Origin: Escherichia coli | Lineage (GTDB): Bacteria > Pseudomonadota > Gammaproteobacteria > Enterobacterales > Enterobacteriaceae | Assembly: GCF_003018115.1 (NCBI RefSeq) | Contig: NZ_CP027457.1 | DNA: 64,000 nucleotides | Reading direction: 5' to 3' (one strand) | Shown here: positions 24,001 to 27,000 of the stretch, one piece after another | How positions within the stretch are numbered: position 1 is the stretch's first letter | Layout: the number at the start of each line of letters is the position of its first letter | Program-made: the position numbers

Positions 24001-27000
24001 ACGGTCAGTGTTACGGTTTGCCCCGCTTCTGCATTCGACGTGCCGCTCAGTACCAGCGAGGCGTTATGTTCCGCAGCACTGATAATGTTGTCCTGAGCGA
24101 TGGTGTTGATGGCAAGCGTTGGCGGTTGGGTATCGACCGTTAGTAGCTGCGCGCCGGTGACCGTATTGCCTGTGGCGTCTTTCCCACTGACCAGCACCGC
24201 CTGATTCCCTTCGCCTAACGCCTGTGCATCGGCGGTCGGCACCTGCACGCTCCAGGCACCGTTAGCGCCTACGCTGGTCGTGTAGGTTTTGCCGTTAAGT
24301 GTGACGGTGAGTTCTGTTCCCTGTGCCAGATGACTACTGGTGCCAGAAAGCGTAAACCCGGCGGCCTGTTCGCTGGCGTTAATAATGTTATCGCCTGCGG
24401 TGGTGGCAACCTGCACGCTGGCCTGACTATTGTCGATGGTTAACGTTATCGAACCGGCGTCAGTGATGGTACTGCCGACAATTTGCACCACTGACCAGGT
24501 ATGTTCACCTGCACTTTGCGTGGGTAACGAGACACTCCAGTGACCGTTGTTGTCTACCTGAGTACTGGCAATAGTATTGCCGTTACTGTCTTTAATCTGA
24601 ATAGTCGCCCCCGCCTGCCCGCTGCCGCTAAAGGTTGGCGTAGTGTCATCGGTGATGTCATTGGTGGCGAGAATGCCGCGCTGATCGCCCTGATTATCGG
24701 TAACTAAAAATGATGGTGTGGCGTTGCCAGGCTCAGCAGGTGGCGTAGGGTTATTAATCACTTCTGTTTTCGAGTCGCCATCTCCACCGCTTGCCAGCAG
24801 TGCACCAAGCGCGCCACCACCTACCGCCGCCCCCGCCAGCCACCCCCACGGGAAGGCGCTGGTCTGAGCAACGGTATCAAGAAATGGCGCAATGCTTTCA
24901 ATCGCAGTGGTCTGGGCAGTCAGTTCTACGGGGGCTAATCCACCCGCAGCAGTATCGGCAAAGGTGATATGGGTTAGCTGTTGACCATCGGCAAACACCA
25001 GTTCCGATTGTTCAGCTGTATTCGCCGCTTGCAGGAAATAACCGTTGCAGCGGATCACCGTGCCGTCCTGCATATAGATCAGCAGGTCATTTCCTTCACG
25101 GACGTAACGCGCAACGGCAGAGGCCTGAGCATGAACCTGCACCACGGAAGGCTCATAAATAACAACCGTGACGTCGCCAGGATTAATCAGCGTTTGTTTG
25201 ACGGATGTTTTACGCGAAATAACATCAATAATCAGGCTCATAATGGCATTCCTGATAAATGGCGCACATCCTTAGCGAGTCCATTTATCTAAATAAGACA
25301 AAGGTAATCACTTAACAACGAGGCATACCTGATATTAATAATGGCAGGATTATTTCAAGTCGGGTAAGTCGTTGTATAAGCCCTGTTTAATTCCCGCTAA
25401 TGGAATAAGGTTATTCACCGCAGCGGCATAATTTACGGCGGCGACCCAGCCATCATAATTGGCATTTATTTCAGCCGATTGCGCCTGAAAGACATCTTGC
25501 TCGACGGTTAATAGATCATTCAGACTGCGTTTACCCAATTTATATTCATTTTGGTACACATCTCGCGTTTTGTGCGCACTTTCGGATTGCGCTAAACCGG
25601 CTTCTTCGCGACCCCGTGCGCCGGTCCAGTTTGCATATGCCACAGACGCTCGTTGCAGCACATCCAGTTTTGCCTGTTCGACCTGCGAGGCAGAGATTTT
25701 TTGTTGCCCTTCGGCCTGTTGCACCTGGGCAGAAACCGCGCCGCCCTGATACAGCGGCGCGTTAACGTTCAGTTGTAGCTGATCATCCCAATACGAGCGG
25801 TCGCTGGTCTGGTAGCGCGTTTTACCCCCCTGAATACTGAGCGTTGGCCAGTATTGCGCTTTCGTTTTTTCCACGCCGTACTGTGCTGACTGGCGTAAGT
25901 TTTCTGCCGCCAGCACCAGCGGGATGGACTGGTAATCAATATTCTTCAGCGATACCGGCTGCTCGGCTAATTCAGCAGGTGGCGCGGCTATCGCCTCCGG
26001 CTGTACGCCAGTGAGCACCGCCAGTTGCGCTTTGGCGCTCGCCATCTGCGCCTGATATTGCTCCAGCGTTGAGCGCATTCCAGCAATACGCGTCTGGGCC
26101 TGTAATTCATCCGACGATGAGTTCAGGCCAGCGTTAGCGCGCAATGCCGCCATGTTGTAGACGTTTTCCAGCGAGTGAATATTGCGTTGAGCCGCATCGC
26201 ACAAAGCCTGATAACGACTGACTTCCATATAGGCAGTCGCCGTTTTCTCTGCAACATCGGTTAAGGTAGCCATCAATTTAAAGCGGTAGCTGTCACGGGC
26301 GGCAGTTTGCAGATTGATATCGTTGTTAGTTTTACCAAAGTCATACACCAGTTGTGTCAGGGTTATGCCATACGAAACGTTGTTATCAAGCCTGCCGCTG
26401 GAGTCCGTTTGTCGGGACGGCCCCGCGTTGCCGGTTAATCCAACGTGCGGATACCAGGCACTTTTGGCTTCATCAATTTGCGCTTCGCCAATGCCTATCT
26501 GCGCCGCCTGTTGAGTGACGTCGGGATTTCGCGCAAAGGCGCGTAATATACTTTCCTGTAAGGATAATTGGGCAACTGGCGTTACCGCTGGGGCGTTCGC
26601 CCATTGTGGCAGCGGTGCAGCAATTGCAGCTTCTCCCATCACCATAAAACTTATTAAAAAAATAAGTCCATTATTTTTACGGTTTTTAAACTGGAATCGC
26701 GCCATAGATAAGTCACTTCCTTCCAGGTCATTATTTTAACTGGTTTTTATAACCAGTCTCATTTTATTAAGAAGGGTAATAACTTGTGCATCTCTTTTGT
26801 CGATCATTGATATGGGCAAAGAAATGCAGCTAAAAAGCTTATACGTTATTTATTTAGAATACACTACGACTTTTAGATTACCATCATACACATTAAGAAT
26901 AATCCACGGTAATAAGTGATTAGCATCACAGATTTATCGCGTATATATCATTTTTTTGTGATTTATTTATTAAAGGAATAAGAAAGGTAATTTGAATTAA

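What the first reader, a model, noticed from the sequence alone, without database searches (positions are those of the whole stretch)
24780..25241. N-terminal retention-type module with a TAAG dialanine motif, but no lapG/lapD in the window
The first ~95 residues resemble a Bap-prefix/retention module and are followed at residues 97-100 (nt 24942-24953) by T-A-A-G, then a Gly/Ala-rich hydrophobic stretch (residues ~129-153). In LapA-type adhesins the periplasmic protease LapG cleaves between the two alanines of such a TAAG motif under c-di-GMP control through LapD. No protease or GGDEF-EAL receptor gene lies within this 64-kb window, so either the motif is fortuitous, the processing machinery is encoded elsewhere, or this adhesin is anchored and released by another mechanism.
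Basis: inference. Interest (0 to 1): 0.65.

Follow-up and report, generated by a model that had tools for sequence, protein, structure and literature searches.

The report
Chance TAAG in E. coli adhesin SiiEA
The TAAG motif is really there, but it sits in a variable loop inside the known BapA-type N-terminal domain of the E. coli giant adhesin SiiEA and shows no sign of being a LapG cleavage site, so the finding is essentially ordinary.

Summary
The window is E. coli chromosome. The 6925-aa ORF (4464-25241, minus strand) is the annotated "BapA-related adhesin SiiEA" with its own TolC-like, LssB-type ABC and HlyD genes, inserted between ybaT and cueR. This is O-island 28 of EHEC, present in 958 of 5426 complete E. 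coli genomes.

T97-A-A-G100 (nt 24942-24953) and the Gly/Ala-rich hydrophobic stretch (aa 130-153) are as described, and the window has no lapG or lapD.

The LapG reading fails every test that goes beyond the four letters:
- The N-terminus is a BapA_N domain (Pfam aa 5-132), not a LapA-type retention module. It does not hit NCBIfam NF033682, and hhalign gives 9.9% probability.
- TAAG lies in a loop inside the predicted fold, with no targeting helix and no DP turn.
- Columns 97-100 are the most variable of the family. About 3 of roughly 98 cluster representatives have the motif, against 24 of 24 LapA-type modules.
- Kluyvera lapG-lapD DNA finds nothing in 5426 E. coli genomes.
- Pseudocitrobacter pairs LapGD with a LapA-type adhesin, while its SiiEA homologue reads TGES.

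What the family does conserve is the hydrophobic segment followed by a Gly run. This is probably the linker or anchor of a LapG-independent retention device.

The parts
4464..25241 (-). siiEA, a 6925-aa giant type I-secreted adhesin (BapA-related adhesin SiiEA; the O-island 28 RTX adhesin)
   Evidence: ORF list. NCBIfam NF047714 scores 511.6 bits against a cut-off of 425. RefSeq annotates 'siiEA' in genomes identical over this stretch.
24846..25229 (-). BapA_N prefix-like domain (aa 5-132), a beta-rich fold that runs to about aa 125
24942..24953 (-). T97-A98-A99-G100, a lineage-specific tetrapeptide in a variable loop between strand 89-94 and strands 105-114
   Evidence: Translation. Secondary structure. 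Column frequencies are T 5/33, A 8/33, A 9/33 and G 7/33. The motif occurs in 2 of 97 well-aligned family representatives, plus P0143.
24783..24854 (-). Conserved uncharged Gly/Ala-rich hydrophobic segment (aa 130-153, with G133xxxG137xxxG141 spacing), followed by a Gly/Asp run. Proposed channel-spanning linker or membrane anchor.
   Evidence: Hydropathy. An equivalent uncharged hydrophobic 17-mer is present in 85 of 93 family representatives, with median start at residue 133. pLDDT is below 50.
4467..5066 (-). C-terminal RTX-type Gly/Asp nonapeptide repeats and the uncleaved type I secretion signal
   Evidence: The last 200 aa contain GRGGNDTLN, GNGGHDTLL and GGNGSDVVN.
25350..26705 (-). Dedicated TolC-family outer-membrane channel of the T1SS
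   Evidence: TIGR01844 at E=1e-124. Annotation.
2298..4460 (-). T1SS ABC permease/ATPase of the LssB (LapB-like) subfamily, with a degenerate N-terminal C39-like region
   Evidence: TIGR03375 scores 837.9 bits against a cut-off of 693. Peptidase_C39 gives only E=0.039.
1126..2301 (-). HlyD-family periplasmic adaptor of the T1SS
   Evidence: TIGR01843 at E=1e-97.

Best explanation
The region encodes the N-terminus of E. coli SiiEA, a BapA-family giant adhesin exported C-terminus first by its own TolC/LssB-type ABC/HlyD type I system.

Residues 1 to about 125 form the BapA_N prefix domain. This beta-rich fold is unrelated to the LapA/MpIBP retention domain. Residues 130-153 form a family-conserved Gly/Ala-rich hydrophobic segment followed by a Gly-rich run. 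The Ig-like repeats then begin at about residue 175.

The TAAG at 97-100 is a fortuitous, Escherichia-specific sequence in the most variable loop of that domain. It is not a LapG site, and E. coli has no Lap-type protease or receptor.

Inferred mechanism (not shown):
- The BapA_N domain is the last part to leave the cell and stays on the periplasmic side as a stopper.
- The roughly 50-residue small-side-chain segment (aa 125-175) occupies the TolC-like channel or inserts in a membrane.
- The adhesin is therefore held at the surface without c-di-GMP/LapG-controlled release.
- Control acts instead at expression. RstA and Ca2+ are reported to regulate OI-28.
For: Identity:
- NF047714, NF033677 and PF22783 all match. 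RefSeq annotates siiEA, and the gene is in 958 of 5426 E. coli genomes.
- OI-28 is required for adherence and is regulated by RstA and Ca2+ (PMC12758282).

Not LapA-type:
- No NF033682 hit even at E<=10, whereas a LapA-type sequence gives 150.6 bits.
- hhalign of BapA_N against LapA retention modules gives 9.9% probability over 13 columns.

Site context:
- Genuine modules keep D99, P100, A108, A109 and G110 invariant and carry [TP]AAG in 24 of 24 sequences. The motif follows a helix and lies in a region with pLDDT below 50.
- SiiEA reads F-A-D-T-A-A-G directly after a strand. Conserved domain elements (L107, P109, S116, P119, L120) lie downstream of it.

Non-conservation:
- Homologues at 45-61% identity read ADAAV, TGEAS, AGDAS or NAEAV at this position.
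- The motif occurs in 2 of 97 representatives, plus P0143.

Machinery:
- None in the window.
- Kluyvera lapG-lapD blastn against 5426 E. coli genomes gives no match.
- The top 120 LapG relatives come from Kluyvera, Leclercia, Phytobacter, Citrobacter and Pseudocitrobacter, with no E. coli among them.
- Homologous loci in Enterobacter cloacae, an unnamed metagenome contig and Pseudocitrobacter have the T1SS genes only.
- In Pseudocitrobacter, lapGD flank a LapA-type adhesin that reads DPTQLLEATAAG, not the BapA_N adhesin.

Conserved hydrophobic segment: present in 85 of 93 representatives.

LssB/LapB-type transporter. This is the class that Smith et al. link to surface-retained adhesins (10.1101/198937).
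Against: - The exact canonical tetrapeptide, at a distance from the N-terminus similar to LapA's (97 versus about 107), has only about a 3% chance expectation.
- The common E. coli alleles keep a LapG-compatible form, TAAG or AAAG.
- Absence of LapG from E. coli rests on a DNA-level search, a plasmid tblastn and a truncated protein hit list (120 of 7999 shown). It does not rest on an HMM scan of the source proteome, so a very divergent BTLCP would be missed.
- The stopper-and-linker mechanism is inferred by analogy. No experiment on a verified BapA_N domain was found.
- Loop placement of TAAG rests on an AF2 model in which that block has pLDDT 81.
Confidence: 0.8

Rival explanations
1. The TAAG is a working LapG-type site. 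A BTLCP protease and a LapD-like c-di-GMP receptor encoded elsewhere in the genome cleave between A98 and A99 and release the adhesin.
For: The tetrapeptide matches the consensus [T/A/P]AAG. The transporter is LssB/LapB-type with a dedicated TolC. LapG/LapD systems do exist in Enterobacteriaceae.
Against: - There is no targeting helix or DP turn, and the site lies inside a folded domain (PMC13090378).
- The domain is unrelated to LapA-type modules.
- The motif is absent from SiiEA homologues, including in a species that has LapGD.
- No lapG-lapD-like DNA is found in 5426 E. coli genomes.
Confidence: 0.03
2. The TAAG/AAAG loop is an Escherichia-specific cleavage site for a different periplasmic protease, giving LapG-independent release.
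For: The motif is kept as TAAG or AAAG in the large E. coli clusters (379, 123 and 71 member sequences). The loop has lower model confidence than its neighbours (pLDDT 81 against 93-97).
Against: - E. coli alleles are at least 90% identical overall, so conservation among them says little.
- One allele reads TEAG (P0006).
- No candidate protease is linked to the locus.
- The OI-28 study reports no processing.
Confidence: 0.05
3. The conserved hydrophobic Gly-zipper-like segment (aa 130-153) is a true membrane-inserted helix that anchors the adhesin, rather than a passive linker threaded through the TolC-like channel.
For: It is an uncharged 17-24 residue hydrophobic segment with GxxxG spacing, conserved in 85 of 93 family representatives at a fixed distance from the domain. 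LapA-type modules have a polar poly-Gly linker there instead.
Against: - Hydrophobicity is only moderate (Kyte-Doolittle about 1.0-1.4) and Gly-rich.
- AF2 gives no helix, with pLDDT below 50.
- There is no known route for lateral release from a T1SS.
- The span between the domain end and the first Ig repeat (about 50 residues) fits an extended chain through a roughly 140 Å TolC. That length is from general knowledge, not tested here.
Confidence: 0.2

Closest known systems
Salmonella BapA and the 'BapA prefix-like domain' adhesins (Enterobacter, Citrobacter, Cronobacter, Pectobacterium, Acinetobacter Bap/Blp2)
   Same: They share the N-terminal BapA_N domain (PF22783/NF033677), the hydrophobic segment followed by a Gly run, Ig-like Big_13/Big_6 repeats, a C-terminal RTX/T1SS signal and an adjacent TolC-ABC-MFP operon without lapGD.
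   Different: SiiEA is a separately curated NCBIfam 'exception' family. It is longer (6925 aa), and only the Escherichia lineage has TAAG/AAAG in the 95-104 loop.
EHEC O157:H7 O-island 28 RTX adhesin (z0609/z0615, 'RtxA28/RtxB28')
   Same: It occupies the same chromosomal island and has the same T1SS genes. It is shown to be needed for adherence and early colonisation and to be activated by RstA and Ca2+ (PMC12758282).
   Different: In EDL933 the adhesin is annotated as two ORFs. Here it is one uninterrupted 6925-aa ORF. That paper does not analyse the N-terminus.
Pseudomonas fluorescens LapA / LapG / LapD
   Same: Both are giant T1SS adhesins with an N-terminal beta domain, a Gly-rich linker, a LapB/LssB-type ABC transporter and a dedicated TolC-like pore. 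The literal tetrapeptide TAAG lies about 100 residues from the N-terminus in both.
   Different: - The N-terminal fold is different (5ix9-like in LapA, not in SiiEA).
- SiiEA has no targeting helix or DP turn.
- The motif is invariant in LapA-type modules but variable in the BapA_N family.
- lapG-lapD lie next to LapA-type adhesins but are absent here.
P. aeruginosa PA1874 (BapA)
   Same: It is reported as surface-retained through its N-terminus but not cleaved by LapG. It has a degenerate 137-AAAIG-141 followed by a poly-Gly linker and is encoded next to lapEBC-like genes (10.1101/198937). This is the same layout as the hydrophobic segment plus Gly run in SiiEA.
   Different: Whether PA1874 carries BapA_N could not be tested here because its sequence was not retrievable. 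This is a lead, not a result.
Marinomonas primoryensis MpIBP anchoring domain (PDB 5ix9)
   Same: It embodies the concept of an N-terminal periplasmic plug plus a pore-spanning linker.

Membership tests
LapG-processed LapA-type adhesin (retention_LapA, NF033682) | N-terminal retention domain homologous to LapA/MpIBP (NF033682; 5ix9 fold) | tested here: not met
LapG-processed LapA-type adhesin (retention_LapA, NF033682) | [T/A/P]AA[G/V] dialanine motif in the N-terminal region | tested here: met
   T97-A-A-G100 is present. It is not conserved among homologues: 2 of 97 representatives plus P0143.
LapG-processed LapA-type adhesin (retention_LapA, NF033682) | Targeting helix and conserved 'DP' turn immediately upstream of the scissile bond (PMC13090378) | tested here: not met
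   The sequence reads ...LTHITFAD-TAAG, directly after strand 89-94 with no helix and no DP. LapA-type modules have an invariant D99-P100 and a helix at 87-95.
LapG-processed LapA-type adhesin (retention_LapA, NF033682) | Cleavage site in a flexible segment between the retention domain and the pore-spanning linker | tested here: not met
   TAAG lies between strands of the same predicted domain, and the downstream blocks have pLDDT 93-96. In the LapA-type control the motif lies in a segment with pLDDT below 50.
LapG-processed LapA-type adhesin (retention_LapA, NF033682) | LapG (PF06035) and LapD (PF16448-GGDEF-EAL) encoded in the genome, usually next to the adhesin | tested here: not met
   - None in the 64-kb window.
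- Kluyvera lapG-lapD DNA finds nothing in 5426 E. coli genomes.
- No E. coli appears among the 120 closest LapG relatives.
- No Escherichia is listed among the plasmid hits.
- A proteome-wide HMM scan of the source strain was not possible, so a very divergent homologue is not strictly excluded.
LapG-processed LapA-type adhesin (retention_LapA, NF033682) | LapB/LssB-type ABC transporter with a dedicated TolC-like pore; C-terminal RTX repeats | tested here: met
   TIGR03375 scores 837.9 bits, and TolC and HlyD genes are adjacent. RTX nonapeptides occur in the last 200 aa.
BapA-related adhesin SiiEA (NF047714) / BapA_N family | Score above the curated cut-off of the SiiEA model; BapA_N domain at the extreme N-terminus | tested here: met
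   NF047714 scores 511.6 against 425. NF033677 scores 69.9 against 35. PF22783 gives E=3.8e-19.
BapA-related adhesin SiiEA (NF047714) / BapA_N family | Ig-like repeat body and a cognate T1SS operon | tested here: met
   Big_13 and Big_6 domains start at aa 181. The operon is TolC-siiEA-ABC-HlyD.
BapA-related adhesin SiiEA (NF047714) / BapA_N family | Surface retention mediated by the BapA_N domain and hydrophobic segment | not testable with these tools
   No experimental report was found. The function is inferred from position, conservation and analogy with LapA and PA1874.

The most novel reading that the evidence does not exclude
The BapA_N domain together with the conserved Gly-zipper-like hydrophobic segment may be a second class of surface-anchoring device for type I-secreted giant adhesins. 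It would be structurally unrelated to the LapA/MpIBP module and independent of LapG, and possibly membrane-inserted rather than pore-threaded. It is widespread in Enterobacterales, Acinetobacter, Halomonas and Pseudomonas.
Probability: 0.35. Interest if true: 0.5.

Novelty: already known. Interest (0 to 1): 0.15.

Why it matters
For this finding, little. The gene, its family, its N-terminal domain and its role in adherence are already catalogued, and the eye-catching TAAG does not indicate a hidden Lap-type c-di-GMP release circuit in E. coli.

The useful residue is a caution and a pointer:
- A four-residue LapG consensus in an Ala/Thr/Gly-rich adhesin is not evidence by itself. The flanking helix, the DP turn and family conservation discriminate cleanly between real and chance sites.
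- How BapA-family adhesins (Salmonella BapA, Acinetobacter Bap, E. coli SiiEA) are held on the cell remains experimentally open. The conserved hydrophobic segment after BapA_N is the obvious element to test.

Tried and rejected
- The word-indexed homologue search with the N-terminal 172 aa returned almost only E. coli fragments. The exhaustive representative search was needed to see the family.
- A PDB sequence search with the family profile found no relative; the hits were low-complexity noise.
- Literature searches for the function of BapA_N found only annotation mentions. 'SiiEA' appears in a single relevant paper, as a gene name.
A single-protein scan to reach P. aeruginosa PA1874 was judged unlikely to work, since the family shares at most 37% identity, and was not run.
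I rejected this on the Pfam extent, the AF2 secondary structure and conserved positions downstream of TAAG.
- I considered EAL genes near the Enterobacter cloacae homologue as a possible c-di-GMP link. They are not present at the E. coli locus, and I did not pursue them.
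Full report
**What is there.**
- The window is Escherichia coli chromosome. A 3-kb stretch around the finding is 100% identical to several ETEC O169:H41-like strains, and 958 of 5426 complete E. coli genomes carry it.
- Across the part of the window covered by the fetched F9792 stretches (positions 1-61101) identity is 98.5-99.4%.
- The finding lies at the 5' end of a 20.8-kb ORF on the minus strand (4464-25241, 6925 aa).
- RefSeq annotates this ORF as siiEA, 'BapA-related adhesin SiiEA'. It scores 511.6 bits against NCBIfam NF047714, whose cut-off is 425.
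- It is flanked by a TolC-family gene (25350-26705), an LssB-type T1SS ABC transporter (2298-4460; TIGR03375, 837.9 bits) and a HlyD adaptor (1126-2301).
- The four genes are inserted between ybaT and cueR among core genes.
- This is O-island 28 of EHEC O157:H7. It was recently shown to be required for epithelial adherence and early colonisation and to be activated by RstA and Ca2+ (PMC12758282).

**Checking the observation.**
- Translation from ATG 25241 gives MSLIIDVISRKTSVKQ...THITFADTAAGGLAPVE... T97-A98-A99-G100 is encoded at 24942-24953, exactly as stated.
- Residues 130-153 (FPWGWLAGAAVGGGALGALLASGG) are uncharged and hydrophobic.
- BapA prefix models match: NF033677 at aa 5-69 and Pfam BapA_N PF22783 at aa 5-132.
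- No BTLCP protease or GGDEF/EAL protein is annotated anywhere in the corresponding 64 kb.
- The sequence facts therefore hold. The motif is weakly improbable. TAAG occurs once in the protein, with 0.03 expected in the first 160 aa.
- The operational LapG consensus [T/A/P]AA[G/V] occurs 8 times in the protein against 7.9 expected, with 0.10-0.17 expected in the N-terminal 160 aa.

**Where the motif sits.**
- An AlphaFold2 model was built on 33 family N-termini (alignment A1). It has mean pLDDT 80.
- It folds residues 1 to about 125 as one beta-rich domain. Strands run up to 89-94, then 105-107 and 109-114, followed by a short helix at 118-124.
- The 10-residue blocks after the motif have pLDDT 93 and 96. 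The block containing it has 81.
- Pfam's 123-position model also aligns through residue 132.
- Family-conserved positions lie downstream of the motif: L107, P109, S116, P119 and L120.
- TAAG is therefore an internal loop of the domain, not a linker after a ~95-residue module.

**Is it conserved?**
- It is not. An exhaustive HMMER search of 1.84 billion cluster representatives found 150 relatives.
- In the alignment, the closest non-Escherichia homologues (45-61% identical, from Enterobacter, Pseudocitrobacter and others) read ADAAV, TGEAS, AGDAS, NAEAV, AGEVA or AADTV at this position.
- Columns 97-100 are among the most variable: T 5/33, A 8/33, A 9/33, G 7/33. By contrast F94 is 30/33.
- Among 97 well-aligned representatives, only the query's own cluster and one other (P0073) have [TAP]AA[GV] in the homologous loop. 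A Duffyella protein (P0143), outside that well-aligned set, also has it. The loop is Ala-rich generally, with AA in 31 of 97.
- Within Escherichia the site is TAAG or AAAG, and one allele reads TEAG.

**Comparison with genuine LapG substrates.**
- I seeded a search with a LapA-like N-terminus written from memory. It was validated only by its end-to-end match to NF033682 (150.6 bits).
- That search retrieved real 'retention module-containing proteins' from the database.
- All 24 examined carry [T/P]AAG. In the 18-sequence alignment A2, D99, P100, A108, A109 and G110 are invariant down to 35% identity.
- This matches the published determinants: a beta retention domain, then a targeting helix, then a DP turn, then [T/A/P]AAG (PMC13090378; 10.1101/198937).
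- The AF2 model of A2 shows a beta domain at 1-66, helices at 72-80 and 87-95, and the TAAG in a segment with pLDDT below 50.
- SiiEA does not hit NF033682 even at E<=10.
- Profile-profile comparison of A1 with A2 gives 9.9% probability over 13 columns.
- SiiEA has no helix and no DP before its TAAG.

**The processing machinery.**
- LapG/LapD systems do occur in Enterobacteriaceae. In Kluyvera and Pseudocitrobacter an intact lapG (PF06035) and lapD (LapD_MoxY_N-GGDEF-EAL) lie immediately upstream of an adhesin.
- In Pseudocitrobacter that adhesin has a canonical LapA-type N-terminus (...IQQAIEDGQDPTQLLEATAAGPQ...).
- The SiiEA homologue of the same species, with 50% N-terminal identity, sits at another locus with its own TolC. 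It reads FAETGESLG where E. coli has FADTAAGGL.
- Homologous loci in Enterobacter cloacae and in an unnamed metagenome contig also contain only T1SS genes.
- The Kluyvera lapG-lapD DNA (2.5 kb) finds nothing in 5426 complete E. coli genomes by blastn with 11-base words.
- The 120 closest LapG proteins (at least 73% identical) come from Kluyvera, Leclercia, Phytobacter, Citrobacter, Enterobacter sp. and Pseudocitrobacter, with no E. coli among them.
- A tblastn against 72,556 plasmids lists no Escherichia among the leading organisms.
- These searches would miss a very divergent BTLCP. A proteome-wide HMM scan of the source strain could not be run.

**What the family does conserve, and the likely mechanism.**
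- Of 93 representatives with enough sequence, 85 have an uncharged hydrophobic 17-mer starting at a median of residue 133. It is often followed by a run of Gly, Ser or Asn (visible).
- In SiiEA the segment has G133xxxG137xxxG141 spacing and is predicted without structure.
- About 50 residues separate the end of BapA_N from the first Ig-like repeat (Big_13 from aa 181).
- The transporter is of the LssB/LapB class, with only a faint C39-like N-terminus. Smith et al. associate this class with adhesins retained in their TolC-like pore.
- They also showed that P. aeruginosa PA1874 supports surface retention but is not cut by LapG. Its N-terminus has a degenerate 137-AAAIG-141 followed by a poly-Gly linker.
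- That layout resembles SiiEA's. I could not verify that PA1874 carries BapA_N.
- My best reading is that BapA_N is a LapG-independent stopper and the Gly/Ala-rich segment is the pore-spanning linker or a membrane-inserted anchor. This is inference. No experiment on a verified BapA_N domain was found.

**Verdict.**
- The sequence observation is accurate.
- The gene, family and domain are already catalogued.
- Interest is low. The only open point is the untested role of BapA_N and its conserved hydrophobic segment.

Noticed in passing
window 32093-32431: A 101-bp tandem array (3.4 copies, 98% matches) lies in the copA-ybaQ intergenic region and has one more copy than strain F9792. Each unit matches Rfam naRNA4 (RF02564), the REP/BIME-derived nucleoid-associated RNA. 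This is an ordinary E. coli repeat with copy-number variation between strains.
   Followed up: partly
window 4464-25241, compared with EHEC EDL933 z0609/z0615: The adhesin is one uninterrupted 6925-aa ORF here. In O157:H7 the published OI-28 description treats it as two 'RTX' genes, and AFDB lists a 1240-aa N-terminal 'large repetitive protein' in O145:H28. In those lineages the BapA_N-bearing piece may therefore be separated from the C-terminal secretion signal.
   Followed up: no
L003 32733-36041 (Enterobacter cloacae CP035738.1): Two EAL-domain genes, one GerE-EAL and one EAL-only, lie just downstream of the T1SS operon of the 58%-identical SiiEA homologue. This could be a c-di-GMP link in that species or a coincidence. 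Nothing equivalent lies at the E. coli locus.
   Followed up: no
window 96-518 (+): A 140-aa hypothetical ORF gives only sub-threshold hits to a TraV lipoprotein and an XAC1346-family secretion chaperone (E=0.003). In strain F9792 it lies beside a YadA-family autotransporter adhesin gene just outside the window, so a second adhesin locus abuts the siiEA island.
   Followed up: partly
window 24000-27000 versus the rest of the window: The 3 kb around the siiEA start is 100% identical to strain F9792. The body of siiEA is only 98.5% identical and the downstream core genes 99.1-99.4%. This suggests mosaic or recombinant history, or repeat-driven divergence, within the adhesin gene.
   Followed up: no
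P0143 / P0404 (Duffyella gerundensis), aa 95-102: A BapA_N adhesin about 33% identical over the matched N-terminal stretch carries the identical heptapeptide F-A-D-T-A-A-G at the homologous position. I read this as convergence in an Ala-rich loop. Whether that genome has LapG was not checked.
   Followed up: no
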